NCBI GenBank assembly: GCA_044227145.1
Contig: JBGAFR010000002.1
Location: 48,703-112,702, forward strand
DNA: 64,000 nt
Direction: 5' to 3'
Source of the DNA: Lysobacteraceae bacterium
GTDB taxonomy: Bacteria; Pseudomonadota; Gammaproteobacteria; Xanthomonadales; Xanthomonadaceae
This document shows, piece by piece, positions 44,200 through 63,774 of the stretch (positions are counted from its first letter, which is position 1; each line of letters begins with the position of its first letter). The notes beneath the pieces were generated by a model. It was not told the origin of the DNA and made no database searches. It saw nothing but the letters and a program-made list of their open reading frames with translations. The position numbers and the translations under genes were made by a program.

Positions 44200-45039
44200 A
44201 TGCGCATCGTGTATCAGTCGACGAACATCGCCGATGTCTACCTGCTCCGCGACCTGCTTGTGCAGGCGGACATCCAGGCGCATGTACAGGGTGAATACCT
44301 CCGGGGCGGGATCGGCGAATTGCCTGCCGACACGCCCGTCTCACTGGCGGTGCCTGACGAGCAGGCCGAGGCGGCCCGCGAGATCATCCTCGATTGGGAG
44401 CGCACGCGACCCGAGGAGGAGGTGGTGGAGGATGTCGAGGAGGCGGCCGTTTCCGACGCGCCGCCTCCGCGTCGTGGTGCCTCCGTCGCGCAGGTCTTCG
44501 GCGCGCTGGTGCTGGGTGCCTTCTGCGGCGGCGCCATCGTCTGGGCGATCTACAACCATCCCGCAAACGGCCCGCTGCGGGATTTCGACGGTGATGGCCG
44601 CGTCGACGAGCGCGTGATCCTGGCCGGCGACCGCGTCGATCGGGTCGAGAGCGATCGCAATCGCGACGGCAAGGTCGACCACATCGTGCACTATGGGCCG
44701 GATCACCTGATCGACGCTGCCGAATACGACGACGATTTCGATGGACAGCTGGAGCGACGGGCGCGCTACGACGAGAACCTGCCCGTGGAATGGACCGTTG
44801 ATTTCGACGGCGATGGCGTCGTCGACATGCGCGGGGTGTACGAACACGGTGTCGTCGCCAAGGAAGAGACCTTCGACAAGAGCACCCGCATCGTCAGGGT
44901 CGTCCGCTATCAGGGCGGCGTCCCGGTGTCCGGCGAGTTCGACTCAGACGACGATGGTGTGCTCGATACGGCACGGACCTACGATGCGAGCGGCGAGATC
45001 ACTGCGTCCAATCCGCTTCCCGCGGACAAGGGCGGTTGA
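44200..45039 (+). CDS. DUF2007-domain membrane protein with DxDxDG repeats
   Basis: N-terminal DUF2007-like LLRDLLVQADI..GEYLRGGIGELP, a TM helix, then repeats DFDGDG, DRNRDG, DDFDG, DFDGDG and DSDDDG. Confidence 0.65.
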   Translation: MRIVYQSTNIADVYLLRDLLVQADIQAHVQGEYLRGGIGELPADTPVSLAVPDEQAEAAREIILDWERTRPEEEVVEDVEEAAVSDAPPPRRGASVAQVFGALVLGAFCGGAIVWAIYNHPANGPLRDFDGDGRVDERVILAGDRVDRVESDRNRDGKVDHIVHYGPDHLIDAAEYDDDFDGQLERRARYDENLPVEWTVDFDGDGVVDMRGVYEHGVVAKEETFDKSTRIVRVVRYQGGVPVSGEFDSDDDGVLDTARTYDASGEITASNPLPADKGG

Positions 45040-45090
45040 TGCCGCTCAGGATGCATTGGCATCCTTGGCAGATGTTCGTTTGCTTTGCTG

Positions 45091-45621
45091 TCAGCCCCAC
45101 ACCTCTGCCCACAGGTCGCGACCGCTCATCCAGTCATCGAGCCACTGATCGAGTGTGTCCTTGTGCGGAAGCACGATCGACGACATCGGCGCGCCGATGT
45201 CCTTCACGCCGGCATCGACATAGAACACCGGATGCGGCGCGACGGCATCGACGACGGAGTAGATGTTGCAGCCCCAGTGGCAGAAGGGGAGCCACAGGGG
45301 TCCCCACTCCCATCCGGGATCGGACGGATCGGGTGCGAGGAAGGTCTGGTATCGACCGACGGCCGTCATCTTCCGATCGTCGGTGAAGCCACCTTCGATG
45401 CCCATCACGCCGTAGCCCGGCCCGAAGCCACCGTTTGCCACGTCGAGGTAGATCGCCCGCAGCGTTGCGGGCAGCGCAAAGCCAAGCGTGGCTTCGGCGC
45501 GCGTCACCGCCGCAGGCGAGGCCGTTGGCGATGCGCGGAAGGTGGTGCCGGTGATGTCGCGGGACAGCGGATCGGCTGCGAGGCGTTCTCGCAGGCGGCG
45601 GACGATGTCGGTGGTGACCAT
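45091..45621 (-). CDS. SMI1/KNR4 (SUKH) family immunity protein
   Basis: PASPAAVTRAEATLGFALPATLRAIY..VANGG and PFCHWGCNIYSVVD. Confidence 0.8.
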   Translation of the reverse strand: MVTTDIVRRLRERLAADPLSRDITGTTFRASPTASPAAVTRAEATLGFALPATLRAIYLDVANGGFGPGYGVMGIEGGFTDDRKMTAVGRYQTFLAPDPSDPGWEWGPLWLPFCHWGCNIYSVVDAVAPHPVFYVDAGVKDIGAPMSSIVLPHKDTLDQWLDDWMSGRDLWAEVWG

Positions 45622-45820
45622 ACAGAGTCTTCGAGGGTGGGTGGCCGAACTTATAGGCAGAGCATCGCATGCCTGCTGCTGTCACACCGGCCGCCGAATA
45701 GTCTGCATTCGGCCCAACTTGCGATTCGGATTTCCTAATCTTCAGAACATGCGTCTGGGCGCACCCTACGATCGGAGTCATTTTTTTTGGAGCGTGCTGA
45801 AGCACGCCACTCTGTGCCGG

Positions 45821-46410
45821 TTACAGGCCTTCAAAACTGAGGGCGTCCGAGGATATAGCGGACAACCTAAATTTCTGAATTTCAAGGACTGACAAGGGCT
45901 CCCGTCGCATGTGGGCGATTCTGTGACAAGTCGGGCATAGAGACACTAGTTCATCGATGTGGACTTCGCGAATTCCAGACTGAGCCACCGGCTTTAGATG
46001 GTGGCACTCGATCACGAACTTGCCCGACACCTCGAGACGAAATTTGCATGCCACGCATTGGTAGTTGTCGCGCCTTTTTCGCTCATCTGCAATCTGGGGG
46101 TTGCGTGCGTATTGGAGGGTTTTTCTGTCTATTTCGTAGCCTTCTATCGCGCGTGGGTCGTCTATCGGGTAGATTTCTTGTGACACCTCTGGGCGTAGTT
46201 TCGCTTTATGACTGAGCGTGCATGCGGCATTTCGTTTGGCGTGCTCGAAATGAGGTGTGTGCCCCTTTCTGCTCCCGTGCGGACCCACGGCCTCTCCGCA
46301 TTCCGTGCACGTAAAAAATAGTTTCCGCGAGGGGTGGAATTCTTGATCTGAATGGCCTCATCCACAGAGATCTCTCGGTCTTGGAACATACAGGTAACGG
46401 CTTTCGGCAC
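45821..46410 (-). pseudogene. Zn-ribbon + HNH endonuclease split across two frames (frameshifted or recoded)
   Basis: Frame A from GTG 46410 (VPKAVTCMFQDREISVDEA...GNY) continues in the -1 frame as FFTCTECGEAVGPH..PHFEH..C and CVAC...ECHH...LCPTCH (HNH). The switch is at T TTT TTA, 46318-46312. Confidence 0.7.
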
Positions 46411-46673
46411 AGAAAATCCCTTGAAGGTGAGTTCTAACTGGTTTGAGAAACACAATATGATGTGTAACGCGTTTCGGATATTGGTGGTCGCTAGTGAGAA
46501 GAATCGATATCTGTAAGGTGTGCTTTCCCGGAATCCCAATGGCCTACTGGTGATTGCCTGTCAGAAAGTGATTTTCGCTATCGATATATAATGCGTACTT
46601 ACACAATATCTTGAATCTGCCCCCGGCGACCCTTGGCTTCCACCTGTCAAATCCGACAGGTATGCCGCAACCC

Positions 46674-52119: not shown

Positions 52120-52599
52120 TCAGGCGGCCCGCGACGGGCTCGCGCGGTCGCCGCGTCGATATCCGATCGCCTCCGCCACATGCGGCCCGAGGATGTCGTC
52201 GCTGCCGGCCAGATCGGCGATGGTGCGGGCGACGCGCAGGATGCGGTGCATCGAACGCGCCGAGAGCTGCAGCAGGTCGATGGCGTTCTCCAGCATCGCC
52301 TGGTCATCCGGTGCCAACCGGCAAACGGCATTCGTCTGCGCCTGGTCGAGGTGGGCGTTCAGTCGCTCCGCGCGCCGCAGCTGGGCTGCGCGGGCGCGGA
52401 CGACGCGGCTGCGGACCGTCTCGCTGGATTCGCCGGGCAGGGCGTCCGGGCGCAATTCGGCGGGCGGCAGGCGCGGGACGTCGAGGTGGAGGTCGATGCG
52501 TTCCAGCAGCGGCCCCGAGATCTTGCCGCGATAGCGCAGGATCGCTTCCGGATGGCAGCGACACCGCCCAGACGGATCGCCCGCCCAGCCACAAGGGCA
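52120..52599 (-). pseudogene. comM: Displaced 3' fragment of comM/yifB (Mg-chelatase-like ATPase), copy 1
   Basis: Begins at CPCGWAGD...YRGKISGPLLERIDL...SARSMHRILRVARTIADL...EAIGYR. No 5' half is upstream; the frame runs into island sequence. Confidence 0.9.
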
Positions 52600-52615
52600 T
52601 AGAGGCGTTGCCTTT

Positions 52616-53059
52616 TTGCCATACGTGCAGATTCGGCGTAAGTCGTTGATCCAGAAAGCATGGGGCTTCGAGCTGCAGACCTTGGGCGAGCACATCCGCC
52701 GCCGCCGGTTCATGCTCGCCATCACCCAAGAGGAGGCAGCAGCGCTCCTCGGGGTGAACGCTTGGACGGTTCACAACTGGGAGACGGGGCAGAGGAAGCC
52801 CGAGATTCGGTTCATCCCGGCTCTCGTCGAGTTCCTCGGCTACGACCCGGAGCCAGTCGATGAGGGGACACTCGCCGGTCGGCTGGTCGCTAAGCGCCGG
52901 GAGCTTGGCCTTTCTCAGCGGGAGGCAGCCCGCTCCCTCCAGATCGACCCCGGCACCTGGGCCGGGTGGGAACTCGGGGCAAGGATCGCGCGGGAGGCCC
53001 ATAGGAGGGCGCTGGAGCGGTTCTTAGAGTCCCCCGGCACAGCTTCGCAACTTGCTTAG
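52616..53059 (+). CDS. Tandem XRE helix-turn-helix protein, copy 1
   Basis: Two HTHs (TQEEAAALLGVNAWTVHNWETG; SQREAARSLQIDPGTWAGWELG); TTG start abuts the comM junction. Confidence 0.75.
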   Translation: MPYVQIRRKSLIQKAWGFELQTLGEHIRRRRFMLAITQEEAAALLGVNAWTVHNWETGQRKPEIRFIPALVEFLGYDPEPVDEGTLAGRLVAKRRELGLSQREAARSLQIDPGTWAGWELGARIAREAHRRALERFLESPGTASQLA

Positions 53060-53241
53060 GGTCGCGGCTTATCGCCCAGATTCAGGGGGCCGAAGTGCCT
53101 CTCTCGAAAAGCTGATCATTTGTTGTGTCGGCAGCCATGCCGAGCATCGCTTTCCTGTTGAAGGATGGGTCAAAGTTAGCTAGTGTGGCTCGCAAATGGA
53201 CAGGAGGCGGCATGCCTCCGCGGAGCACGGGAGGAGGGCCT

Positions 53242-53712
53242 GTGGCCGATTTGAAGAACGTGTTTATCAGTCACGTCCATGAAGATGATTCTGGATTGCA
53301 GAAGCTGAAGGATCTGCTCGCGACGAAGGGGATGACCATTCGCGATGCATCGATCCATACGGGTAAGTTCAACAACGCCAAGGATCCGGACTACATCAAG
53401 TCCGGCATCCTTGCGCCACTGATCAAGTGGGCCGGAACTTTCATTTGTTACGTATCGCCGTTGACTAAGAACAGCGAATGGGTCAACTGGGAGATCGAGT
53501 ACGCCGCGAAGCAGGGCATGCGCATCATCGGCGTCTGGCAGCAAGGCGACAAAGGCTGCGAACTCCCGGATGCGTTGAAGGAGTACGCCGACGCCGTTGT
53601 GGGATGGAATGGCGATTCGATCATTGATGCCATCAATGGCAGGGACAGCTGTGAGATGCCCGATGGAAGTCCGTGGTCACCTGTCCCGCTCAAGAGGCAC
53701 CCCTGCGGGTGA
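53242..53712 (+). CDS. TIR-domain protein (DUF1863/ThsB-like), TIR1
   Basis: VFISH, SEWVNWEIEYA (catalytic Glu) and IIGV; GGAGG ribosome-binding site before GTG 53242. Confidence 0.85.
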   Translation: MADLKNVFISHVHEDDSGLQKLKDLLATKGMTIRDASIHTGKFNNAKDPDYIKSGILAPLIKWAGTFICYVSPLTKNSEWVNWEIEYAAKQGMRIIGVWQQGDKGCELPDALKEYADAVVGWNGDSIIDAINGRDSCEMPDGSPWSPVPLKRHPCG

Positions 53713-54332
53713 GACTCTACTCATACGTTGTTCGGTACGACAGCGGATTTGCGCCCAATCCGTTCTATGGATGGTGCACCCTAGCCACCTGCAAACCCAA
53801 GATTCGCAAATCGGCGCAGGTCGGCGATTGGATTGTCGGCACGGGCAGTGACGACAAAAAAGTTCGACGCGGGAAACACCTCGTCTATGCCATGCACGTC
53901 ACCGAGATACTGACGTTCAACGAATACGATAACGACCCACGCTTTGGATCAAAGAAGCCATATCGCACGGGCAGTCGTAAGCAGAGCTGCGGCGACAACA
54001 TCTACTTTCGGAATGCGAAGAATACGCAATGGTGTCAGCGCGACTCCTTTCATTCAAATGCCGACGGCACGCGACGCTCCGATCATGTTGCCCGCGACAC
54101 GGGCGTGAACCGGGTGCTATTGAGCGATGATTTCGTCTATTTTGGCGGCAGCGGGCCACGTATCCCAGAGAGGCTGATAGCCACCAATGGCCACTCTCTT
54201 TTTAAGAAAGGTCCAGGCTACTGTGTATTTGACGACCCGCAGTTTATCGCACAAGTGGAAAAGTGGGTCGCATCGCTTGGCGATCCTGGCTACCAGGGTG
54301 CCCCATTCGAATGGATATCGCTTCGTGAATAA
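53709..54332 (+). CDS. Nmad2 (nucleotide-modification-associated domain 2) protein
   Basis: LYSYVVRYDSGFAPNPFYGWCTLATCKPKIR...GDWIVG, GDNIY, VLLSDDFVYFG; GTGA overlap with TIR1. Confidence 0.75.
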   Translation: MRLYSYVVRYDSGFAPNPFYGWCTLATCKPKIRKSAQVGDWIVGTGSDDKKVRRGKHLVYAMHVTEILTFNEYDNDPRFGSKKPYRTGSRKQSCGDNIYFRNAKNTQWCQRDSFHSNADGTRRSDHVARDTGVNRVLLSDDFVYFGGSGPRIPERLIATNGHSLFKKGPGYCVFDDPQFIAQVEKWVASLGDPGYQGAPFEWISLRE

Positions 54333-55464
54333 GCCATCGATTACAAACGGTTCCATCCTGCTGTCGGACTATGCATCGCAGATCGTGCCGACCGATGTGC
54401 TCGATGCAATAGACTTGCGGCCGGTGCAACACGGTCTTTTTGGCGAGGTGGGCGGCATCATGTCAACGGCCAAGAAGCATATCCGGGACAAGAAGGGGTT
54501 TCCGGAATACCGCCGGGCTGCGGAAGAAGAGTTTGGCGACACGCTCTGGTATTTGGCCGCGTTGTGTCGTCGTTGCGGCATTGGATTGGATGCTGTCTTC
54601 GAGCAAGCGGTGGGTGACGGGAAATATGCAACGGCACTGGCTGCGAGTGATCTTGCAACGGGATCCATTGCCACGGTGGTGGTTCCGGTGACATCGCCCG
54701 AGCTGGATGCGACGCTTGCATCGCTGGGGGTGGCGACCGCAAAACTGATGCAGGGCCAGCCCTCGATGTCCGCATTAGTCAGCTTCGCAAGGCACTACCT
54801 TGATGCGCTTCATGCGACGGGGCTGACGTTTTCGAACGTCGTCCAAGCGAACTTGCGGAAGGCGCGCAGCGCATTCTTGGAACCAGAAATCGCTGACCTC
54901 ATCAACTTCGATGCTGAATTCAAAGAAGAAGAGCAGCTACCCCCTGTTTTTCGTATTCGAATCGACCAGCGGTCCAGCGGCAAAAGCTATCTTAAGTGGA
55001 ACGGCGTCTTCATCGGCGACCCTTTGACTGATAACATCGCTGATCCCGATGGCTACCGGTTTCACGACGTGTTTCATCTCGCAAATGCCGCTATTCTTCA
55101 CTGGTCACCGGTGTTCAGAGCACTTATCAAGCACAAGCGAAAAAGTAACCAGAAGTATGACGAAGAGCAGGATAGTGGCCGGGCAATCGTTGTCGAAGAA
55201 GGGCTGACGGCTTGGTTGTTTTCTCGTGCCAAGGCTTTGGATTACTTTGAGGGTCATGATCGCGTATCGTTGGGCATCCTCAAAACGGTCCAGGAATTTG
55301 TTGCTGGGTACGAGGTTGAGCGGTGCCCGATGAAGCTGTGGGAACGATCCATTCTTCAAGGGTATGACGTCTTTCGTCAGGTGCGTGAAGCGAAGGGCGG
55401 GTTTGTGATCGGTGATCGAAAAGCCAGGACTCTGCAATACGAACCACTGGAGGGCAAAGCATGA
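54325..55464 (+). CDS. MazG-like nucleotide pyrophosphohydrolase with a MazG_C domain
   Basis: GLFGEVG and EEEFGDTLWYLA acidic motifs; C-terminal DGYRFHDVFH...RKS...DSGRAIVVEEG. Confidence 0.8.
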   Translation: MNKPSITNGSILLSDYASQIVPTDVLDAIDLRPVQHGLFGEVGGIMSTAKKHIRDKKGFPEYRRAAEEEFGDTLWYLAALCRRCGIGLDAVFEQAVGDGKYATALAASDLATGSIATVVVPVTSPELDATLASLGVATAKLMQGQPSMSALVSFARHYLDALHATGLTFSNVVQANLRKARSAFLEPEIADLINFDAEFKEEEQLPPVFRIRIDQRSSGKSYLKWNGVFIGDPLTDNIADPDGYRFHDVFHLANAAILHWSPVFRALIKHKRKSNQKYDEEQDSGRAIVVEEGLTAWLFSRAKALDYFEGHDRVSLGILKTVQEFVAGYEVERCPMKLWERSILQGYDVFRQVREAKGGFVIGDRKARTLQYEPLEGKA

Positions 55465-56147
55465 GCGTTCATCCTTTCGTCAAGGCAGTATCGTCTCTGC
55501 GCTTTGAAAATGCATTTAACCCTTACTCTGATCGCTGCGAAGTGCATGATCGCCAGGACGCACCACAGCGCCGTGCGAAGGCATTGTCTGCGGTCGTCTC
55601 GAAGGCGACGGAGACAGCCGTTGATGCGGTGTGGATCGGTCGTGACCTTGGATACCGCGGTGGGCGACGGACGGGTCTTGCACTGACCGATGACGTACAC
55701 GTTTCTCGGCATGCAGAGCGCTGGAATGTGCGCGCAGAACGGCAGACGGTGGGAGAAGCCGTCTCCGAACGAACGGCTGCGGTGATATGGGGCATGCTCG
55801 ATCAGATCGATGAGCCCATATTTCTCTGGAATGTGTTTCCTTTGCACCCCCACGAAGCCGGATCACCGTTTACGAATCGTCAGCATAATGTGCGCGAGCG
55901 CCAAGCTGGAGAGGAAATCCTGAGCTTGTTGTTGGACTTGCTGAGGCCGCGCCGTGTCCTCGCAGTGGGCAACGATGCGTTTGGTGCCGCGGCGCGGGTC
56001 GCCAGCCAGTGCGCAGTGACGCTGGTTCGGCACCCCAGCTACGGAGGGCAACGTCAGTTTGAACGTCAGGTGGCAGATCTTTATGACTTGCGTGGACGCA
56101 ACGGCTCGTTCGCGTTCCCATGTCAAGAAGAAATGGCGCACGCCTAA
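55461..56147 (+). CDS. Uracil-DNA glycosylase superfamily protein
   Basis: FNPY, IGRDLGYRGGRRTGLALTD motif A, LWNVFPLHPH..NR, and VRHPSYGG motif B; ATGA overlap with MazG. Confidence 0.8.
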   Translation: MSVHPFVKAVSSLRFENAFNPYSDRCEVHDRQDAPQRRAKALSAVVSKATETAVDAVWIGRDLGYRGGRRTGLALTDDVHVSRHAERWNVRAERQTVGEAVSERTAAVIWGMLDQIDEPIFLWNVFPLHPHEAGSPFTNRQHNVRERQAGEEILSLLLDLLRPRRVLAVGNDAFGAAARVASQCAVTLVRHPSYGGQRQFERQVADLYDLRGRNGSFAFPCQEEMAHA

Positions 56148-56216
56148 CTAAGTGTGAGGTCGGTCGGTCTGCTGGTAACGGTGGCGTGCTAGCGAAATTA
56201 ATTGACTGGAATCAAT

Positions 56217-56798
56217 ATGGCGTTACTTTCAGAGGCGATGGTAAGGCAAGCGGCCGCACGCACTAAGGTTGTTGCTTCGATGGAAAGTGCAAGTGAAATC
56301 TTGCGTGAAGCACGGAAAACAACCCGAAGCAGCTTTGACATTTTCTTGTCCCACTCGAAGCTAGATAGCGACTTGGTCTTAGGAGTCAAATCTGTTCTCG
56401 AATCTATCGGGAAAACAGTCTACGTTGATTGGATTGATGATCCTCTGTTGGATCGTAGCAACGTAACGCCGAAGACTGCCGAAAAGCTTCGCATGCGTAT
56501 GCGTCAGTGCAAATCTCTTTTCTATGCGCATTCTGAAAATGCAACCACTTCGCGATGGATGCCGTGGGAAATCGGATATTTTGACGGCTTCAATTCAAAC
56601 GTGGCGATCTTGCCGATTTCCCGCAGCGAAAATCAGACCACCTTCGCTGGGGTTGAATATCTGGGCTTGTATCCGTATGTCGATGTAACCGGGCGTACCG
56701 TGTCTTCGGCAGGAACTCTCTATTTGCACCGTAATGCAGGCGACTACGCGGGGTTTGATCGGTGGGTCTTGTCGACAGACAAACTGCGCCCGCTCTAA
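56217..56798 (+). CDS. TIR-domain protein, TIR2
   Basis: FDIFLSHS, VYVDWIDD and SRWMPWEIGYFDG (catalytic Glu). Confidence 0.85.
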   Translation: MALLSEAMVRQAAARTKVVASMESASEILREARKTTRSSFDIFLSHSKLDSDLVLGVKSVLESIGKTVYVDWIDDPLLDRSNVTPKTAEKLRMRMRQCKSLFYAHSENATTSRWMPWEIGYFDGFNSNVAILPISRSENQTTFAGVEYLGLYPYVDVTGRTVSSAGTLYLHRNAGDYAGFDRWVLSTDKLRPL

Positions 56799-56834
56799 TG
56801 GCTTGACGAATTACTTACCTAGTGAGGTTGTGAT

Positions 56835-57974
56835 ATGGCCCTCTACGAGATAGCGGTGCTCGGAGATCCGACTGAAGAGCAATTGGACCTGTTGACGGAC
56901 GGATTGAAGACGGCAGCAAACGACTTTCAGCTTACATACGGAACAGACCTTCTCCTTCACATAAATCCGCACAAATTTGAGCCGGGGGATAGGTCGGCTG
57001 CCGTGGCCGTCTTCTTTGGTAGTCCCGATGTAGTGGCGACAGACCTTCAGGTGCATTTCGATACTTCCAGAATTCCTGTCTTACCTGTTGCATCAAGCGA
57101 GAAGCGCGTGGGGGCGGAGATTCCAGAGTCGCTGAAGACGATCAACTGCCTGCTTTACGACAAAGCGAGTGCGCAACTTGTGCCTGCCATATTGAGTAGT
57201 TTGGGGCTCATGTTGCGGACGCGCAGAGTTTTTTTAAGCTACAGAAGAACGGAGTCAACGCCAGCCGCAGTTCAGCTATTCGGCGAAATATCTGCGAGAC
57301 GTTTTGACGTGTTCCTCGATACGCATAGCGTGAACGTCGCGGAAGAATTCCAAGATGAATTGTGGCACCAGCTATGCGATTCGGATGTGCTCGTGTTGTT
57401 GCAGACGCCAGGATACTTTGAAAGTCGCTGGACAATGGCCGAGTGGGGCAGGGCTCTCTCAAAAGGAGTTGGCATACTCAGTGTCGATTGGCCTGATTCC
57501 ACGCCTTCGATCCATACAGGAACGGCGAGCCGCGTGGAGTTGATACGCTCGGAAATCAATGCAGATGGCACTTTGGCGGCATCGGCAGTGGAGAGAATCT
57601 GTCACCAGATTGAGAAAGTGAGAATTACAAGCCAAGCGGTAAGACACATCTCACTAATCACTTCTGTCCAGGATGCGGTTACCAAAATTGGCGGAAGACT
57701 TCTTCGCATCAGCGCGAATCGAACACTTCACGTAACGCTGGCTACAGGGCGAAAGATTGCAGTGCAGCCAAGAATAGGTGTGCCAACTTCCCTAACAGCC
57801 CAAGAGGCGCTCGATAGGGCTCAAGGAGACCATGCGGCGGTTGTGTACGATCATTTAGGGATTCGTCCGAACTGGCAAAAGCATCTACGTTGGCTAGGGG
57901 AGCATGTTCCATCGGCAAGATGGGTTAAAGCGAGTGAAGCGGGCTGGACATTCGCAGGATGGGAGACTCCATGA
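56835..57974 (+). CDS. Multidomain TIR protein, TIR3
   Basis: Central RVFLSYRR...DVFLD...DSDVLVLL..FESRWTMAEW, with uncharacterised N- and C-terminal alpha/beta domains. Confidence 0.8.
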   Translation: MALYEIAVLGDPTEEQLDLLTDGLKTAANDFQLTYGTDLLLHINPHKFEPGDRSAAVAVFFGSPDVVATDLQVHFDTSRIPVLPVASSEKRVGAEIPESLKTINCLLYDKASAQLVPAILSSLGLMLRTRRVFLSYRRTESTPAAVQLFGEISARRFDVFLDTHSVNVAEEFQDELWHQLCDSDVLVLLQTPGYFESRWTMAEWGRALSKGVGILSVDWPDSTPSIHTGTASRVELIRSEINADGTLAASAVERICHQIEKVRITSQAVRHISLITSVQDAVTKIGGRLLRISANRTLHVTLATGRKIAVQPRIGVPTSLTAQEALDRAQGDHAAVVYDHLGIRPNWQKHLRWLGEHVPSARWVKASEAGWTFAGWETP

Positions 57975-58585
57975 GCGCCATTTTTCTATCAGCAAGCATC
58001 CCTGTTGCAGGGCGTGGCACCTACTATGAGGATGCTGATCCTTTCCTCATACAGTTCGCGGTGAGGGAACTCCTTGTCGTTGCATTAGGAAGGCGTCCGA
58101 TTGTGTGGGGTGGGCATCCTGCTATCACGCCTATGGTGTGGAGCGTGTGCGAAGACCTAGGTGTTCAGTATGCGCAATCCGTGCTGCTCTTCCAGAGCAA
58201 ACTCTTTCAGGACTTCTTCCCACAAGAGAACGAACGTTTTGCAAATGTTCGTTATGTCGATGCAGTCCAAGATGATCGAGAGAGAAGCCTTCAATCTATG
58301 CGGAAAAGCATGATGGAGGGTGAGTTTGAGGCGGGTGTTTTTATTGGCGGCATGAATGGGGTTGAAGAGGAGTGCGATCTCTTCATGCAGTTGCACCCTC
58401 GCGCCAAGATCATTGCGCTCGGCTCTCCTGGTGGTGCTGCAAAGCGGATCGCCAAGAAACGCGATGAGGACATTGAACGAATAGACTACCTACGCCTATT
58501 TGCAGAGCGCCTTGAAATAGATACAACCGAGCCGCGAAATTCACGTGTTTTTGAGAACGATCATATCGCTAGGCCAAGCTTCTAA
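57971..58585 (+). CDS. Stand-alone SLOG-domain protein
   Basis: IFLSASIP, IVWGGHPAIT, SLQSMR, GVFIGGMNGVEEE and GSPGGAA; ATGA overlap with TIR3. Confidence 0.8.
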   Translation: MSAIFLSASIPVAGRGTYYEDADPFLIQFAVRELLVVALGRRPIVWGGHPAITPMVWSVCEDLGVQYAQSVLLFQSKLFQDFFPQENERFANVRYVDAVQDDRERSLQSMRKSMMEGEFEAGVFIGGMNGVEEECDLFMQLHPRAKIIALGSPGGAAKRIAKKRDEDIERIDYLRLFAERLEIDTTEPRNSRVFENDHIARPSF

Positions 58586-58628: not shown

Positions 58629-59108
58629 TCATGCTGCCCTTGTCGGAGTCGCCCTCTCCCCGCGCCGATAACCGATGGCTTCCGCAACGTGCGGGCCGAG
58701 GATATCGGCACTTCCGGCGAGGTCGGCGATGGTGCGGGCCACGCGGAGGATTCGGTGCATCGAACGCGCCGAGAGTTGCAGCAGGTCGATCGCGTTCTCC
58801 AGCATGGATTGATCATCGGGCGCGAGCCGGCACACCGCGTTCGTTTCGGATTGATCCAGATGCGCGTTGCAGCGGCCGGCGCGTTGTCGCTGCACTTCGC
58901 GCGCACGGACGACGCGGGTGCGGACGACGTCGCTGGATTCGCCCGCGGGTGCGTCGGGGCGCAGTTCGGCGGGCGACAGTCGCGGCACGTCGAGATGCAG
59001 GTCGATGCGTTCGAGCAGCGGCCCGGAGATCTTGCCGCGATAGCGTGCGATCGCTTCGGGATGGCAGCGGCAGCGGCCGGACGGATCGCCGGCCCAGCCG
59101 CAGGGGCA
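58629..59108 (-). pseudogene. comM: Displaced 3' fragment of comM/yifB, copy 2
   Basis: CPCGWAGD...ISGPLLERIDL...EAIGYR; same 480-bp length as copy 1 with synonymous divergence. Confidence 0.9.
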
Positions 59109-59577
59109 TAGAGGCGTTGCCTTTTTGCCATACGTGAGGATTCGGCGTAAGTCGCTGATTCAGAAAGCATGGGACTTCGAGCCGAAGAGCTTGGGCGACC
59201 ACATCCGCCGTCGCCGGCTCATGCTCGCCATCACCCAAGAGGAGGCGGCGCAGCGCCTCGGCGTGAACGCCTGGACGGTTCACAATTGGGAGACGGGGCA
59301 GAGGAAGCCCGAGATTCGGTTCATCCCTGCCCTTGTCGCATTCCTCGGCTATGACCCGGAGCCGGTCGATGAGGGGACGCTCGCCGGTCGGCTGGTCGCT
59401 AGGCGGCGTCAGCTTGGCCTCTCTCAGCGCGAGGCAGCCCGTTCCCTCCAGATCGACCCCGGCACATGGGCTGGGTGGGAGCTTGGGGCCAGTATCGCTA
59501 GGGAAGCCCACAGGAGGGCGGTGGAGGGGTTCTTAGAGAACCCCGGCACAGCTTCGCAACTTGCTCAAGGTCGCGGC
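58629..59577. repeat. Direct repeat copy 2 (comM 3' fragment + double-HTH gene)
   Basis: Colinear with 52120-53068. Confidence 0.9.
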
Positions 59578-59583
59578 CGATGA
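59125..59583 (+). CDS. Tandem XRE helix-turn-helix protein, copy 2
   Basis: Near-identical paralog of 52616-53059; the TAG stop is replaced by CAA, extending the ORF by 5 codons. Confidence 0.75.
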   Translation: MPYVRIRRKSLIQKAWDFEPKSLGDHIRRRRLMLAITQEEAAQRLGVNAWTVHNWETGQRKPEIRFIPALVAFLGYDPEPVDEGTLAGRLVARRRQLGLSQREAARSLQIDPGTWAGWELGASIAREAHRRAVEGFLENPGTASQLAQGRGR

Positions 59584-59784
59584 TGGTGCGGAGCGGCGTC
59601 CCGGTGGACGCTTCGGCCGTGCTGCCGGGGTGGAGACAGGATGCCTCGGGCGCATGCCGGGGGCTATCAGGGAAAGCCGGTATCGGGGGTAGGGGTTTTC
59701 TGACGCGACCCGTCACAAGCTCGCACGGTCGGCTCGGTGATGGGCTCGGACTTATGAAAGCTAGGAAAGGCGCCGTTAGGTCAC

Positions 59785-59812
59785 AAAAGACGACGCCCAC
59801 CGGAGTGGGCGT
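59785..59812 (-). terminator. Intrinsic terminator after the YjzC-like gene
   Basis: Stem ACGCCCAC-CGGA-GTGGGCGT, followed on the minus strand by CTTTT. Confidence 0.6.
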
Positions 59813-59839
59813 GCCCTCTTCCCTGACGTAGCCACGACC

Positions 59840-60010
59840 TCAGGCGTACTGGGTCAAGACCCAGGTAACCGCCTGACCGTTGTAGGGCGGCATGCGGTTG
59901 CCCTTCGCGATCGGAGCGGTCGTGTTGTAGCCACTCGGCTTCCAGACGCCACTCTCCGGGCAGGTTTCGCCCGTGCGGGCAGTCGTTCCAATCGGCTTGC
60001 GGGTACTCAT
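59840..60010 (-). CDS. YjzC-like small protein (56 aa)
   Basis: MSTRKPIGTTARTGETCPESGVW...APIAKGNRMPPY..VTWVL pattern; followed by a terminator. Confidence 0.65.
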   Translation of the reverse strand: MSTRKPIGTTARTGETCPESGVWKPSGYNTTAPIAKGNRMPPYNGQAVTWVLTQYA

Positions 60011-60059
60011 AGATACAATCCTCAGCCAAGCCCGCCGGGAGTATTCCCGACGACTAAAG

Positions 60060-60101
60060 CTTGACGGAAGCGACAATAACATAATTGTCGACTCCGTCAA
60101 G
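60060..60101. promoter_or_regulatory. Palindromic operator overlapping divergent -35 boxes
   Basis: CTTGACGGAAGCGACAAT-AACATA-ATTGTCGACTCCGTCAAG (16/18 inverted match); TTGACG on both strands. Confidence 0.7.
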
Positions 60102-60136
60102 TATGCTTTGACAACGACCAGACCAAGGGGCCGGCA

Positions 60137-60469
60137 ATGGCATCAGACTTTCCCTCCCGCCTAAAGGCGACCCGTGAGCTACGTGAACTAACCCAGGGAG
60201 ACTTAAGCAAGCTTGCAGGTCTACCAGCGACCACGATCTCTCACTTCGAGAGTGGTTCTCGAAAGCCATCGTTTGATAACCTGAGGCGGCTGGCTAAGGC
60301 GTTAAGTGTCAGCACTGATTACTTAATGGGTATCACTGATACACCCGATGCAACCACCGCCGCTACGCGGATAGCAAGACATCTCCCAAATGCCACTGAA
60401 GACGAGATATCGATGCTAGAAGCTGTAGCAAAATCACTAGCTGATAGGAGACCGCCAAGCGATGGATAG
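60137..60469 (+). CDS. XRE-family HTH repressor
   Basis: RLKATRELRELTQGDLSKLAGLPATTISHFESGSRKPSFDNLRRLAKAL. Confidence 0.9.
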   Translation: MASDFPSRLKATRELRELTQGDLSKLAGLPATTISHFESGSRKPSFDNLRRLAKALSVSTDYLMGITDTPDATTAATRIARHLPNATEDEISMLEAVAKSLADRRPPSDG

Positions 60470-61322
60470 TTTGCGGCGTCGAACGATTGAGGCAAAAGCA
60501 GAAGAGCTTTTGCATGATGCAGGGATAGCAGCTTTACCAGTCAAGCCGCAACAATTGGCCGAACATCTTGGCATTCAAGTACACGCTAAGCCTGCTTCGA
60601 TCAAGGGTGCCTCCGGTTGGTTGGTTCGATCCGGGGACGAGTTCGCAATCATCTACGCTACATATATCGATAGCATCGGCTTTCAACACTTCAGCATAGC
60701 CCACGAGTTGGGCCATTACATGCTGGATGGTCATCCCGAGCATGTGTTCCGCAATGGTGGCGAGCATGCGTCGCATGCTGGTTTCGAAGCAGCGGATCAC
60801 ATTGAGCGAGAAGCCGATCACTTCGCAGCATGCCTGCTCATGCCGAAGGAGTTGTGCCGATCTCTGATTGGCCGCAGTCGCGACGGATTAGAGGCAGTTC
60901 TCCATATTGCCAATCAATGCGAAACGTCATTGACCGCCGCTGCGCTCCGCTATGCAGAGATTGGGCAGCTTCCAGTCGGCATCGTCCAAGCTTACCAAGG
61001 CAAAGTCGAATTCTGTGCGGCCTACCCTATGCAAGCGCATGTTGGTTGGGCTAGACCGCTTCTGCGCAATGCAAAAGTCCCCGTTGACAGTGCAACGAGT
61101 CGCCTGTCTCAAGACCAGGAAGCGATTCTGCGAGGCGGTGAAGATAGCGACAGCAGTCAAGCGAGCGATTGGTTTCCAGGAGCAGATTCTAAAGCCGGGC
61201 TCATAGAGGAAGTGATCGGTCTCGGCAAGTTCGGTCGGACGCTGACCATTCTCACTCTCGATCCGGACGCAGCAGGCACGGATGAAGATGATGATGGTTG
61301 GGAAGAGCCACGCTTTCGCTAG
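60462..61322 (+). CDS. ImmA/IrrE (CapP-like) zinc metallopeptidase
   Basis: FSIAHELGHY HEXXH motif, EREADHFAACLLMP and ETSLTAAALRY; overlaps the XRE stop. Confidence 0.88.
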   Translation: MDSLRRRTIEAKAEELLHDAGIAALPVKPQQLAEHLGIQVHAKPASIKGASGWLVRSGDEFAIIYATYIDSIGFQHFSIAHELGHYMLDGHPEHVFRNGGEHASHAGFEAADHIEREADHFAACLLMPKELCRSLIGRSRDGLEAVLHIANQCETSLTAAALRYAEIGQLPVGIVQAYQGKVEFCAAYPMQAHVGWARPLLRNAKVPVDSATSRLSQDQEAILRGGEDSDSSQASDWFPGADSKAGLIEEVIGLGKFGRTLTILTLDPDAAGTDEDDDGWEEPRFR

Positions 61323-61339
61323 CGAGATTTGAGACTGAC

Positions 61340-62095
61340 ATGGCGGCCTTACCATATCTAATCGCATATCTCGGAGCAGGGTTCTTGCTCGCGTGCGGAT
61401 TTTTAATGAACAACAAGATTTCTTGGCCGAAGAAATTTCTGGTGGCCGGAATTATGATGGTCTTTTGGCCGCTATTTGCATTTGCGGTGCCGGAATCATT
61501 TTTCAAGCCAAGCAAGGAAGAGGCAGCGGCCAGAAACGGAGATCGGCTAACAATAGAGCTAACAAAGCTCTTGCAAGGAGAGTCTGACGGCCTATCTCAG
61601 GTCTTGGGAGAAAAAGTCGCTCGTGTAGCGAAAGGGGGCGATAAAGCAGTTACTTACTTCGGTGTCCCAGGTAGCTTAGATGATGTGCTAGAGGCATTCT
61701 GGGATGAAAATATCCCACCATCGATATACATCAGTCTGCTTTGGGCGCGGGATGAGCTAAAAGAACATGAGCCTCACGATGGGCCGCTTTTCAGTCGCCG
61801 TCCACCTGATTGGTACGTGGGATTTTCACACGAATTTCTCAAGTGCATAGCAAAAGCTGATGGCAAGTTAAGGGGGCGCATACTGGATGCAATCGGCAAG
61901 ATATCTGAGGCTCCTATGGAAGCCGTAGGCGATACTGTCAAGCCGCTTACCAGCAATCTGTCTGGGCTCTGGCGCTATCGAATAGGTGATGATCGTCTTG
62001 TGTATTTCCCGGATCACGAAGAAAAGAAGATCACGTTGATCTTTTTTGGGGCTCGGGGCGATGTGTATAAAAAGGTGTCGCCGCTAGACTCATGA
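61340..62095 (+). CDS. Membrane-anchored protein with a C-terminal RelE/ParE toxin domain
   Basis: Two N-terminal TM helices; C-terminal WYVGFSHEFLK...RILDAI...KPLTSNLSGLWRYRIGDDRLVY...GARGDVY. Confidence 0.7.
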   Translation: MAALPYLIAYLGAGFLLACGFLMNNKISWPKKFLVAGIMMVFWPLFAFAVPESFFKPSKEEAAARNGDRLTIELTKLLQGESDGLSQVLGEKVARVAKGGDKAVTYFGVPGSLDDVLEAFWDENIPPSIYISLLWARDELKEHEPHDGPLFSRRPPDWYVGFSHEFLKCIAKADGKLRGRILDAIGKISEAPMEAVGDTVKPLTSNLSGLWRYRIGDDRLVYFPDHEEKKITLIFFGARGDVYKKVSPLDS

Positions 62096-62145
62096 TCCGA
62101 TCATATCCCGTATGCCATCTGTCAAAGTCTCTGTGGAGGTCGATA

Positions 62146-62433
62146 ATGAAGCAGGTAGACACAAACAAGCTTCGAGAAATTATTGAGTCGGAAGTAAAAT
62201 CGGACACCGAGCAGATGTTCTACAAGGATGCGTTCGCGGCTGGCTGCTACCTTCACAAAGAAGGGCATCACGCGGCAGCGGGCAAGCTATGTAACGGTGT
62301 GCTCAAGTCGCTTGGGTACAACAAGAGGAAGACGTACTTTGCTGAGTTGCTTGATAACATGAGTGGCAATGAAGACCTCTACGCGCAGTGCATGTGGGCT
62401 CATCATGAGCTCAATGAGCTTTTCCGTTCTTGA
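62146..62433 (+). CDS. Hypothetical protein (95 aa)
   Basis: GGAGG ribosome-binding site before ATG 62146; no recognised motif. Confidence 0.55.
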   Translation: MKQVDTNKLREIIESEVKSDTEQMFYKDAFAAGCYLHKEGHHAAAGKLCNGVLKSLGYNKRKTYFAELLDNMSGNEDLYAQCMWAHHELNELFRS

Positions 62434-62975
62434 CCTCTGAGGTGCGCGTGATTACCGATCACTTGAAGGCAAAGGTTCTGGCATCTGTCGCTAGCGGCAT
62501 GTCGATCTCGGAGGCTGCTGCGCGGCATGGCATCGATGTTAGCCAGGCCAGGAATGGTATTGCGCGCATCTGTAGGGATAGCAAGCTGCCGTCTGAGGTA
62601 TCCAAGATACATGCCAATCCAGCGCCCTACAAAAAGGCCGCAGAGAGGGTCATAAACACGCCTCGCTATGGATTGAGGAAAGCCCTGCGCAAAGACATGG
62701 AGTATCAATTGCAGCTTCAGTCTGCCGACCAAATTGAGCCGGGCTACATCTCCAATCTGACTGCGGCTATGATTCTCGATGCTGGAATCACGGATGTTGG
62801 CCTTGCTGAGATTCAAGAATGGATGGCTGGCTATGACGCAAGTCTCAAGAAGAAAGCCCCAGGGAGTGCCGAGCATCTAGTTTTGGTCAGAAGAGCAATG
62901 TATGTGCTCGACTCCTTTGGTGTTGAGGTGGAAAGCGCAAAGAAGCAGATTGAATCCTTTACGCAGGAAGACTGA
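62430..62975 (+). CDS. Hypothetical protein with a possible N-terminal HTH
   Basis: GMSISEAAARHGIDVSQARNGIARIC resembles an HTH; start codon uncertain. Confidence 0.55.
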   Translation: MTSEVRVITDHLKAKVLASVASGMSISEAAARHGIDVSQARNGIARICRDSKLPSEVSKIHANPAPYKKAAERVINTPRYGLRKALRKDMEYQLQLQSADQIEPGYISNLTAAMILDAGITDVGLAEIQEWMAGYDASLKKKAPGSAEHLVLVRRAMYVLDSFGVEVESAKKQIESFTQED

Positions 62976-63015
62976 TCACTTGCAAGATTGGCAGCAAGAA
63001 TGGAGTCATGGAATT

Positions 63016-63774
63016 ATGAACAAGAAAAAAGCACTAGCGCTCTTTGCCATGATGCTCAGTGTCATTGGCATGGCTGCGTGTGCGCAACCTACTCCAAGCA
63101 CTCAGGCTCGATCAGAAGTATCCGATCCAGCGACAGAGGAAGCTGCACGGGTAGCCGAAGCGGCCGACGCGGCTGCAATAGCGTCAGGATCAGAGGATGG
63201 CAAGAAGGAGGGTGTGCCCGTGACTACAGAATCAATGTCTGAGAAGACAGTAGGCCCATCAATTGCATCAACGTTGCTGGAAGAGCGCATCTTGCGCTTT
63301 GTTGACGGCATACGCTCGTCACCAGATATGACGCGCAGTCGTCTCGAAGAGGTGATGCAGGTGAGGCTAGAGCAGGATACAGAACTGCAAGGATGGTGGT
63401 GGTACACCGGTGCCGCTGATGAAAAGTGGCAATACACGATAAAGATTGACGAGAGAAGCAAGGATGATTCTCTCCCGCTAGTCACAATCAGCTTTTCGGC
63501 GGGAGACGTCGAAGGAAATGCAAGGGCGACGGTCTGCACCTATGAGCTTGAAGCCTTCGCTCAATCGCTTATCGCGATTGGATACACCCGCCATTCCGGC
63601 TGGAAGCAGCCAGGTGGGCATCTTGTATTCAGTAGGGAACGGGCTGGTACGCGGTTCAGCTCGACCGTGAAAGTGCGCAAGTACATCCAGCAGACCGGAT
63701 CAGGCGTGAACGATTACCAGTATTGCGTCTACGCAATCAGCATGTCGGCTGGAGAGCTACTCGATGGCGAGTAA
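63016..63774 (+). CDS. Lipoprotein, candidate immunity protein
   Basis: MNKKK plus hydrophobic core plus MAAC lipobox; 3' end overlaps the next ORF by 11 bp. Confidence 0.6.
   Translation: MNKKKALALFAMMLSVIGMAACAQPTPSTQARSEVSDPATEEAARVAEAADAAAIASGSEDGKKEGVPVTTESMSEKTVGPSIASTLLEERILRFVDGIRSSPDMTRSRLEEVMQVRLEQDTELQGWWWYTGAADEKWQYTIKIDERSKDDSLPLVTISFSAGDVEGNARATVCTYELEAFAQSLIAIGYTRHSGWKQPGGHLVFSRERAGTRFSSTVKVRKYIQQTGSGVNDYQYCVYAISMSAGELLDGE

What the first reader, a model, noticed from the sequence alone, without database searches (positions are those of the whole stretch)
53242..56147. TIR-Nmad2-MazG-UDG: translationally coupled four-gene candidate defence system centred on modified or non-canonical nucleotides
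Seen: four co-oriented genes with overlapping stop/start codons (53709, 54325, 55461) inside an island. They encode a TIR with its catalytic Glu (WEIEY), an Nmad2-like protein, a MazG pyrophosphatase fused to MazG_C, and a UDG-superfamily glycosylase. Known: TIRs are NAD+-processing signalling or effector enzymes in Thoeris and related systems; Nmad2 and MazG_C were defined computationally as nucleotide-modification-associated; MazG cleans (d)NTP pools; UDG-fold enzymes excise altered bases. Inference: the unit senses or destroys phage DNA or dNTPs carrying uracil or hypermodified pyrimidines, and couples that to TIR signalling or cell death. I do not recall an experimental characterisation of this four-gene combination.
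Basis: partly seen in the sequence, partly recalled or inferred. Interest (0 to 1): 0.88.

Follow-up and report, generated by a model that had tools for sequence, protein, structure and literature searches.

The report
TIR-Nmad2-MazG-UDG cassette beside Thoeris
Four tightly coupled genes for nucleotide-handling enzymes form a widely conserved, already predicted but untested candidate anti-phage module that almost always sits next to a Thoeris immune system, here a type III one.

Summary
Four co-oriented genes (53242-56147) overlap at their stop/start codons. They encode a ThsB-type TIR with its catalytic Glu, an Nmad2 protein, a MazG fused to MazG_C, and a divergent UDG-superfamily protein. 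All 75 species-level genomes whose contig was long enough keep the same order.

The combination is not new as a prediction. DeWeirdt et al. (Science 2026) picture a MazG/MazG-C, NMAD and UDG system as predicted but unvalidated. Their validated system DS-4 shares the TIR-Nmad2 pair (39% and 52% identity).

NCBIfam equivalog models match ThcB4 and ThcA. All seven genes are the whole cargo of a 6.5-kb low-GC cassette at comM.

Across genomes the cassette lies beside Thoeris III in 52 of 75 loci and beside Thoeris I in 7 more.

My best reading is a defence module that watches pyrimidine nucleotides and gives a TIR output, probably working with the neighbouring SLOG effector. The mechanism is inferred, not shown.

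I file it as a new member of a known, predicted kind, of moderate to high interest.

The parts
53242..53712 (+). TIR1: a ThsB-type TIR protein of 156 aa. Its catalytic Glu is E84, in the motif WVNWEIE. The protein ends in an invariant Cys (KRHPCG).
   Evidence: PF08937 2e-20. PADLOC ThsB model PDLC00418 1.8e-80. E84 and the C-terminal Cys are invariant in 62 unique sequences, DS-4 included. It is 39% identical to the DS-4 TIR (3e-34).
53709..54332 (+). Nmad2 protein of 207 aa. It is very highly conserved, with invariant C23, C28, C94, H115 and D130. The fold is probably PUA-like (ASCH/EVE type).
   Evidence: PF18753 2e-73. There are 2285 homologues, 64-79% identical (one at 99%) among the 120 best. 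The AF2 model has pLDDT 75. The best Foldseek matches are ASCH, EVE, THYN1 and readers of modified DNA bases, but they are weak: E>=0.17 against PDB, and 5.7e-3 at probability 0.99 against BFVD. It is 52% identical to DS-4 Nmad2.
54325..55464 (+). MazG (all-alpha NTP pyrophosphohydrolase) fused to MazG_C, 379 aa. The metal-binding residues E41, E68, E69 and D72 are invariant. MazG_C keeps the motifs DxLTDN, YRFHDVFH, KRKS and EEG.
   Evidence: PF18722 2e-78. The profile matches iMazG 2q5z at 4e-5 and DCTPP1 at 3.6e-3. Foldseek gives iMazG probability 0.99, DCTPP1 0.96 and RS21-C6 with dm5CTP 0.94. PHROG 229, MazG-like, matches at 5e-33.
55461..56147 (+). Divergent UDG-superfamily protein of 228 aa. 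Its motifs are GRDLGYRGGRRTG, FLWNVFPLHPH, NR and VRHPSYGGQ. It has no Fe-S cysteine cluster.
   Evidence: PF03167 3e-5, 24.6 bits against a cutoff of 24.3. Profile against PDB: family-4 UDG 4zbx 2.9e-4, TM0511 3.5e-3, SMUG1 0.11. The family has 1193 clusters at 50% identity.
56202..56798 (+). TIR2: a ThsB-like TIR. The likely start is the ATG at 56217. It is the common third gene of type III Thoeris loci.
   Evidence: PADLOC ThsB model PDLC00422 5.5e-65. PF13676 matches at 9e-6. A TIR2-like gene lies directly next to ThcB4-ThcA in about 19 of the 80 loci anchored on the SLOG gene.
56835..57974 (+). ThcB4, the TIR protein of type III Thoeris (379 aa).
   Evidence: NCBIfam equivalog NF058526 at 1e-119, 399.8 bits against a cutoff of 220. 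PADLOC ThsB model PDLC00434 at 9e-69.
57971..58585 (+). ThcA, the SLOG (cluster 3) protein of type III Thoeris. Its start overlaps the ThcB4 stop as ATGA. It keeps the LOG-like motifs GGHPAITP and GGMxGxxxE.
   Evidence: NCBIfam equivalog NF058525 at 9.5e-68, 227.5 bits against a cutoff of 110. PF18180 at 3e-63. Motifs come and the junction.
52616..53059 (+). Xre-type HTH gene at the head of the cassette. It is part of the repeated boundary module.
   Evidence: HTH_31 at 2.9e-16 and HTH_3 at 1.3e-14. A second copy lies at 59125-59583.
52120..52630 (-). The 3' fragment of comM/yifB (Mg-chelatase-like). Together with the HTH gene it forms a module of about 950 bp. The module is repeated at 58630-59580 and brackets the seven-gene cargo.
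   Evidence: Mg_chelatase_C at 6e-31 for this copy and 2.8e-32 for the second. The repeat is 89% identical in the alignment. Contigs from other metagenomes end at this module.

Best explanation
The four genes are one operon and form an anti-phage defence module.

Its invariant core is a ThsB-type TIR paired with Nmad2. To this core are attached two enzymes of pyrimidine deoxynucleotide chemistry. One is a MazG pyrophosphohydrolase of the DCTPP1/iMazG type, fused to MazG_C. The other is a UDG-like glycosylase.

Most likely course of events, with all steps inferred:
1. During infection MazG and the UDG-like enzyme act on non-canonical pyrimidine nucleotides, MazG in the dNTP pool and the UDG-like enzyme in DNA.
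2. Nmad2, a PUA-like fold of the kind that reads modified bases, binds or processes the product.
3. TIR1, whose catalytic Glu is intact, turns this into NAD+ cleavage.
4. The ADPR-derived product is read by the SLOG effector encoded next door. Here that is ThcA of a type III Thoeris system, and in other genomes it is ThsA of type I.

On this reading the cassette is a nucleotide-sensing input branch that usually works together with a Thoeris system.

What is shown: the genes, their domains, their conserved catalytic residues, the conserved synteny and the recurrent adjacency to Thoeris. What is inferred: the substrates, the signal, the coupling to ThcA and the anti-phage phenotype.
For: The operon is conserved.
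- All 75 loci with enough contig keep the gene order and the overlapping junctions.

The enzymes look active.
- TIR1 E84 is invariant.
- The MazG residues E41, E68, E69 and D72 are invariant.
- The UDG residues N124 and H191 are conserved in at least 90% of a diverse family.

A defence role is supported.
- The TIR-Nmad2 pair is homologous to that of DS-4, which reduced lambda plating about 9-fold in E. coli.
- DeWeirdt et al. 2026 picture a MazG, MazG-C, NMAD and UDG system as predicted-defensive.
- A variant lies between psu and int of a P4-like satellite.
- Nmad2 is absent from deposited phage genomes.
- In P. aeruginosa the cassette is cargo next to an integrase.

A nucleotide theme runs through the variants.
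- Divergent TIR-Nmad2 cassettes swap in thymidylate-synthase-like, HMUDK-type kinase, dCTP-deaminase-like and radical-SAM genes.
- The Nmad2 model resembles ASCH/EVE folds.

Coupling to Thoeris is suggested by position.
- ThcB4-ThcA lies within 3.4 kb (median 571 bp) in 52 of 75 loci, in four arrangements.
- The partner ThcA versions differ widely, at 40-58% identity to the window's.
- Seven more loci have ThsA (SIR2-STALD, 7e-154) plus ThsB at the same position downstream of UDG.
- The published background is that TIR signalling systems occur in at least 8% of genomes (abstract read).
- Three divergent TIR-Nmad2 cassettes also adjoin ThcB4-ThcA.
- Other loci carry patatin-like or small transmembrane neighbours.
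- Compared with L001, the cassette is 81-91% identical in DNA while the Thoeris genes are about 50-60% identical, yet the two remain adjacent.
Against: No experiment exists for this gene set. DeWeirdt et al. state that none of these domains has been validated.

Several results argue against dependence on Thoeris.
- DS-4 was cloned as five genes with no Thoeris effector among them and still defended, although weakly.
- Sixteen of 75 loci have no recognised Thoeris neighbour.
- Thoeris III often occurs without the cassette: only about 18 of 80 loci anchored on the SLOG gene have a TIR-Nmad2 cassette.
- Defence systems cluster anyway, and many loci with the same gap of about 575 bp may be one island that has spread horizontally.

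In two divergent variants (L167, L171) the TIR-like partner has lost the FISHxHxDD and WEIE motifs. TIR catalysis is therefore not universally needed by the Nmad2-MazG-UDG trio.

The fold evidence is limited. The PUA-like assignment for Nmad2 rests on weak Foldseek scores and a model of pLDDT 75. The function of MazG_C is unknown.
Confidence: 0.4

Rival explanations
1. The cassette is an autonomous defence system, and its Thoeris neighbours merely share the island. MazG and the UDG-like enzyme attack phage-specific dNTPs and DNA bases directly. Nmad2 assists. TIR1 is the system's own NAD+-depleting effector or a regulatory subunit.
For: DS-4, which has the same TIR-Nmad2 core, defended E. coli without any Thoeris gene. 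Sixteen of 75 loci lack Thoeris. In the P4-like satellite locus L171 no ThcA or ThcB4 homologue was found. The Nmad2-MazG-UDG trio persists where the TIR is degenerate. The MazG domain resembles DCTPP1 and RS21-C6 (the latter solved in complex with dm5CTP).
Against: Adjacency to two different Thoeris types reaches 79%, in at least four arrangements and with divergent alleles. That is hard to explain by hitch-hiking alone. The DS-4 phenotype is weak, which would fit a missing partner.
Confidence: 0.3
2. The cassette is a biosynthetic pathway. It makes a modified nucleotide or nucleobase that acts as an antiviral analogue or as a signal. The TIR-like enzyme would work as an N-glycosidase or transglycosylase. 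MazG would make NMP from NTP, MazG_C would phosphorylate, and the UDG-like protein and Nmad2 would modify or exchange the base.
For: TIR, DrHyd and SLOG domains form one clade of enzymes that act on N-glycosidic bonds (PMC9503650). The variable partners are typical enzymes of base-hypermodification pathways: thymidylate-synthase-like, dNMP kinase and HMUDK. DeWeirdt et al. describe MazG-C as a predicted nucleotide kinase. Base-modified nucleotides do signal in the Kongming system.
Against: TIR1 belongs to the ThsB family (PF08937, PADLOC ThsB); characterised Thoeris TIRs act on NAD+. No product can be named. The UDG fold is known for acting on DNA rather than on free nucleotides.
Confidence: 0.17
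3. The cassette is not immunity. It is a DNA base-modification, anti-restriction or repair function that benefits the mobile element carrying it.
For: By name, Pfam's Nmad2 is a 'nucleotide modification associated domain'. The cassette travels on islands, plasmids and a satellite.
Against: Nmad2 is absent from 50,697 phage genomes. A ThsB-type TIR is always attached to it. The neighbours are Thoeris, patatin-like and similar effector genes. The homologous DS-4 restricts phage. The satellite variant sits between psu and int.
Confidence: 0.08

Closest known systems
Predicted MazG/MazG-C, NMAD and UDG system of DeWeirdt, Mahoney and Laub (Science 2026, Fig. 6F and S12B). The paper says a 2015 bioinformatic study (Burroughs et al., NAR) had already predicted several of these domains as defensive.
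   Same: It has the same domain set. It is described as co-occurring with known defence systems and as not validated.
   Different: The figures themselves are not held, so I could not check gene order, whether the TIR is drawn in, or sequence identity. The paper makes no link to Thoeris types in the text I could read.
DS-4 of DeWeirdt et al. 2026 (working name NTTI), validated in E. coli.
   Same: The TIR to Nmad2 pair is translationally coupled and in the same order. The proteins are 39% and 52% identical to the window's.
   Different: Its partner enzymes are a thymidylate-synthase-like protein, a dNMP kinase and a 5-hmdU-DNA-kinase-like protein, not MazG-MazG_C and UDG. The only screen row I saw is lambda, at -log EOP 0.93 with smaller plaques.
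Thoeris type III (van den Berg et al. 2024; effector called ThsD by Yirmiya et al. 2025, named ThcA and ThcB4 in NCBIfam).
   Same: The adjacent genes at 56835-58585 pass the NCBIfam equivalog cutoffs. TIR1 and TIR2 are ThsB-like. The published description, several TIR proteins plus a SLOG effector, fits the locus.
   Different: The four-gene cassette is not a defined part of type III. Nmad2, MazG and UDG have no Thoeris model. The type III signal is still uncharacterised.
Thoeris type I (ThsA SIR2-SLOG plus ThsB).
   Same: TIR1 matches the Pfam ThsB_TIR family and a PADLOC ThsB model over its full length. In seven genomes thsA-thsB directly follows the UDG gene.
   Different: There is no ThsA in this window, and no evidence that TIR1 makes 3'cADPR.
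Kongming (KomABC), which signals through base-modified nucleotides.
   Same: It sets a precedent for immunity in which a non-canonical deoxynucleotide (dITP) is the message and NAD+ depletion is the output.
   Different: The proteins are unrelated. The resemblance is conceptual and was not tested.
DCTPP1/RS21-C6 and integron iMazG house-cleaning pyrophosphatases.
   Same: The N-terminal domain matches them by profile and by fold, and it keeps the acidic metal-binding residues.
   Different: Here the domain is fused to MazG_C and embedded in a TIR operon. Its substrate is unknown.

Membership tests
Predicted MazG/MazG-C, NMAD and UDG defence system (DeWeirdt 2026) | One protein with a MazG domain followed by MazG_C | tested here: met
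   PF18722 at 2e-78. The N-terminal domain matches iMazG at 4e-5 and Foldseek probability 0.99.
Predicted MazG/MazG-C, NMAD and UDG defence system (DeWeirdt 2026) | An Nmad2 (NMAD) gene in the same operon | tested here: met
   PF18753 at 2e-73. Its start and stop overlap those of the neighbouring genes.
Predicted MazG/MazG-C, NMAD and UDG defence system (DeWeirdt 2026) | A UDG-superfamily gene in the same operon | tested here: met
   PF03167 at 24.6 bits against a cutoff of 24.3. The deeper profile reaches family-4 UDG at 2.9e-4.
Predicted MazG/MazG-C, NMAD and UDG defence system (DeWeirdt 2026) | Protection against phage | not testable with these tools
   The paper itself says the system has not been validated.
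DS-4 (validated, DeWeirdt 2026) | A TIR plus Nmad2 pair | tested here: met
   39% identity (3e-34) and 52% identity (1e-49).
DS-4 (validated, DeWeirdt 2026) | Thymidylate-synthase-like, dNMP kinase and 5-hmdU-DNA-kinase-like genes | tested here: not met
   None is present at 52616-58585. They do occur in other TIR-Nmad2 loci such as L129.
Thoeris type III | ThcA SLOG effector and ThcB4 TIR protein | tested here: met
   These are the neighbouring genes, not the four of the finding. NF058525 scores 227.5 against a cutoff of 110, and NF058526 scores 399.8 against 220.
Thoeris type III | The four-gene cassette is a defined component of the system | tested here: not met
   No NCBIfam or PADLOC Thoeris model hits Nmad2, MazG or UDG. 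TIR1 has no NCBIfam hit. Thoeris III commonly occurs without the cassette.
Thoeris (any type) | The TIR makes an ADPR-derived signal that activates the effector | not testable with these tools
   Only the catalytic Glu could be checked, and it is invariant.
UDG family 4 | Uracil-pocket Asn, NR motif and motif B His-Pro-Ser | tested here: met
   The residues in WNV (N124), NR (N139, R140) and RHPS (H191) align to 4zbx in the earlier profile search and are at least 90% conserved.
UDG family 4 | Four-cysteine Fe-S cluster (defining feature taken from my own knowledge) | tested here: not met
   Only one Cys (C26) is conserved across the family. I therefore treat it as a separate UDG-superfamily lineage.
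All-alpha NTP pyrophosphohydrolase (MazG/DCTPP1) | Acidic metal-binding motifs on a four-helix core | tested here: met
   E41, E68, E69 and D72 are invariant. The fold match has TM 0.70-0.73 and rmsd 3.0 A.

The most novel reading that the evidence does not exclude
TIR-Nmad2 cassettes are interchangeable nucleotide-sensing input modules for TIR signalling. Each variant would use its own set of pyrimidine-nucleotide enzymes (here MazG-MazG_C and a UDG-like protein) to detect phage-specific nucleotides or DNA bases. It would then drive its ThsB-type TIR to make the signal read by a swappable neighbouring effector: ThcA, ThsA, a patatin-like protein or a small membrane protein. That would make type III Thoeris plus this cassette one seven-gene system, and it would name an input for the still uncharacterised type III pathway.
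Probability: 0.3. Interest if true: 0.8.

Novelty: new member of a known kind. Interest (0 to 1): 0.6.

Why it matters
The cassette is found in Pseudomonas aeruginosa, Stenotrophomonas, Achromobacter, Paraburkholderia, rhizobia, sphingomonads and many environmental genomes. One MazG allele alone was seen on 423 contigs. Yet none of its three non-TIR proteins has a known activity in immunity.

If it senses or removes non-canonical pyrimidines, it would be a host answer to phages that replace thymine or cytosine.

If its TIR feeds the neighbouring SLOG protein, it would give type III Thoeris, whose signalling is unknown, a testable input. It would also show that Thoeris systems can gain enzyme-based sensors.

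The P. aeruginosa version (L081) is a ready experimental handle.

Tried and rejected
Searches that found nothing or too little:
- Sequence searches of PDB found nothing for Nmad2 or for the single UDG sequence. Only profiles helped.
- The MazG_C fold could not be placed. The full-length model matched only through its N-terminal domain, and MazG_C had low pLDDT.
- Promoter and terminator scans gave no more sites than shuffled sequence.
- NCBIfam has no model for the four proteins.
- PHROGs has none for Nmad2 or UDG.

Papers I could not reach:
- Burroughs et al. 2015 and van den Berg et al. 2024 are not held. What I say about them comes from papers that cite them.
- A search for ThcA and ThcB returned cannabinoid papers.
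- A search for a preprint of the van den Berg paper failed.

Expression:
- One run labelled RNA-Seq holds the region, but only as low-depth contigs. It says nothing about expression or operon structure.

Readings considered and rejected:
- Housekeeping dUTP or uracil repair does not fit the low GC, the mobile context, the attached TIR and the patchy distribution.
- A phage-encoded DNA hypermodification pathway does not fit, because no deposited phage carries Nmad2.


Full report
**What is there**

The window has about 70% GC, but from about 53,000 onward it drops to 51-57%. Between 53242 and 56147 lie four genes on the + strand. Their ends overlap:
- GTGA at 53709
- an 8-nt overlap at 54325
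- ATGA at 55461

The first gene starts at a GTG preceded by GGGAGGAGGG. The four proteins are as follows.
- **TIR.** It is a ThsB-type TIR: PF08937 at 2e-20 and PADLOC ThsB model PDLC00418 at 1.8e-80.
- **Nmad2.** PF18753 at 2e-73.
- **MazG-MazG_C.** PF18722 matches at 2e-78. Pfam misses the N-terminal MazG domain. A 25-sequence profile finds integron MazG at 4e-5 and DCTPP1 at 3.6e-3. Foldseek on an AF2 model gives iMazG probability 0.99 and TM 0.70.
- **UDG-like protein.** It barely passes Pfam's UDG cutoff. A profile of 35 diverse relatives reaches family-4 UDG at 2.9e-4, and all other matches are UDG-superfamily proteins.

Residues expected for activity are conserved:
- TIR E84 is invariant.
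- MazG E41, E68, E69 and D72 are invariant.
- UDG N124, N139, R140 and H191 are conserved.

**Conservation**

An Nmad2 alignment pulled 80 loci from one-genome-per-species contigs.
- Every locus has TIR-Nmad2.
- All 75 loci whose contig is long enough have the four genes in the same order.
- The junctions are equally tight, with commonest spacings of -1, +3 or -8, and -4 nt.
- Hosts are Gamma-, Beta- and Alphaproteobacteria.

So the unit is real, and it is one operon-like unit under selection.

**Prior knowledge**

DeWeirdt, Mahoney and Laub (Science 2026) show, among predicted systems, one with MazG, MazG-C, NMAD and UDG. They state that none of these domains has been validated. They say a 2015 bioinformatic study (Burroughs et al.) had already predicted several of these domains as defensive.

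Their validated system DS-4 has five genes: a thymidylate-synthase-like gene, a dNMP kinase, a 5-hmdU-DNA-kinase-like gene, a TIR and Nmad2.
- The window's TIR is 39% identical to the DS-4 TIR, and its Nmad2 is 52% identical to the DS-4 Nmad2.
- The only DS-4 screen row I found is lambda, with an EOP reduction of 0.93 log and smaller plaques.

The four-gene set is therefore a published prediction, not a characterised system.

The next three genes are two more TIR proteins and a SLOG cluster-3 protein.
- NCBIfam equivalog models name two of them Thoeris type III ThcB4 (399.8 bits against a cutoff of 220) and ThcA (227.5 against 110).
- Type III Thoeris is described as several TIR proteins plus a SLOG effector with unknown signalling.
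- The seven genes are bracketed by two copies of a module of about 950 bp. The module is a comM 3' fragment plus an HTH gene, and the copies are about 89% identical.
- In other metagenomes, contigs break exactly at that module and the unit has higher depth than its flanks.

The seven genes are therefore the whole cargo of one mobile cassette.

**Association with Thoeris**

Of the 75 complete loci:
- 52 have ThcB4-ThcA within 3.4 kb, at a median gap of 571 bp, in four arrangements. The ThcA partners range from 40% to 58% identity to the window's.
- 7 of the remaining 23 have ThsA (SIR2-STALD, PADLOC 7e-154) and ThsB directly after the UDG gene.
- Others have a patatin-like protein or a small membrane protein next door.

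Starting from ThcA instead, ThcB4 is always its upstream partner, but only about 18 of 80 metagenomic loci carry a TIR-Nmad2 cassette. Three of those 18 have divergent cassettes with other enzymes:
- HMUDK-type kinase plus thymidylate-synthase-like
- MazG-MazG_C plus HMUDK
- dCTP-deaminase-like plus radical SAM

The link is therefore one-sided. The cassette seeks out Thoeris, and Thoeris does not need the cassette. Against its closest genome relative the cassette is 81-91% identical in DNA, while the adjacent Thoeris genes are only about 50-60% identical. The pairing has therefore been re-made rather than simply inherited.

**Variants elsewhere**
- TIR-Nmad2 occurs on plasmids of Cyanobacteria, Bacteroidota and Alphaproteobacteria, with kinase, radical-SAM, MazG, UDG or phospholipase partners.
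- It is absent from 50,697 deposited phage genomes.
- In a P4-like satellite, MazG, UDG, a TIR-like gene and Nmad2 sit between psu and int.
- In that locus and one other, the TIR-like protein has lost its catalytic motifs but keeps the C-terminal tail with its Cys.

**The Nmad2 fold**

The AF2 model has pLDDT 75 and pTM 0.76.
- Its best structural neighbours are ASCH and EVE domains, THYN1 and restriction enzymes that read 5-hmC.
- The scores are weak: E>=0.17 against PDB, and 5.7e-3 at probability 0.99 against viral models.
- A PUA-like base-reading or nucleoside-hydrolysing fold is a reasonable but unproven assignment.

**Interpretation**

A defence role is well supported by context and by homology to DS-4.

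My preferred model has MazG and the UDG-like enzyme generating or removing such species, Nmad2 reading them, and TIR1 producing an NAD+-derived output. The neighbouring SLOG effector would use that output. I give this model 0.4.

The main rival, at 0.3, is an autonomous system that only shares islands with Thoeris. It is supported by DS-4 working alone and by the variants with a degenerate TIR.

A biosynthetic reading (0.17) and a non-immune reading (0.08) remain possible.

No substrate, signal or phenotype has been shown.

**Verdict**
- It is a new member of a known, predicted kind.
- The recurrent pairing with Thoeris I and III is the most useful new lead.

Noticed in passing
window 52120-53070 and 58630-59580: A module of about 950 bp occurs twice in tandem, with the copies about 89% identical. 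It consists of a comM/yifB 3' fragment on the - strand and an Xre-type HTH gene on the + strand. The two copies bracket the seven-gene cargo. No integrase and no 5' part of comM were found in the part of the window examined (44.5-64 kb). In other metagenomes, contigs end at this module and the unit has 3-7 times the depth of its flanks.
   Followed up: partly
window 59580-63774: A second low-GC cassette follows the second module. It carries an HTH_3 gene plus a Peptidase_M78 (ImmA/IrrE-like) gene at 60137-61322 and a protein with a YoeB-like region at 61298-62095. Several further ORFs have no family match.
   Followed up: no
window 53709-54332, compared with L001:2933-3553: Nmad2 is the most divergent gene of the cassette when compared with the closest genome relative. 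It is 65-75% identical in DNA, while TIR1 is 87-90% and MazG and UDG are 81-91%. This suggests allele exchange or faster evolution of Nmad2.
   Followed up: partly
window 53692-53709 (TIR1 C-terminus), L167:1140-1637 and L171:7561-7995: TIR1 proteins end in an invariant Cys: KRHPCG here and NVVC in DS-4. The Cys survives even in TIR-like partners that have lost their catalytic motifs. Nmad2 has invariant C23, C28, C94 and H115. A shared metal site across a TIR1-Nmad2 interface is possible but untested.
   Followed up: partly
L071, L072, L074, L075, L077 and L080, about 20-64 bp upstream of TIR1: Sphingomonad loci lack Thoeris. Instead they have a conserved protein of about 230-250 aa directly upstream on the same strand, with a hydrophobic stretch that looks like a transmembrane helix. 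It has no Pfam or PADLOC match and may be an effector.
   Followed up: partly
window 57971-58585: ThcA is a single-domain SLOG protein that keeps the LOG-type motifs GGHPAITP and GGMxGxxxE. It may itself be a nucleotide N-glycosidase rather than only a signal receptor.
   Followed up: no
window 45000-46600: A small low-GC patch (55-61%) holds an ORF on the - strand at 45821-46288 with an HNH-type cysteine/histidine motif.
   Followed up: no
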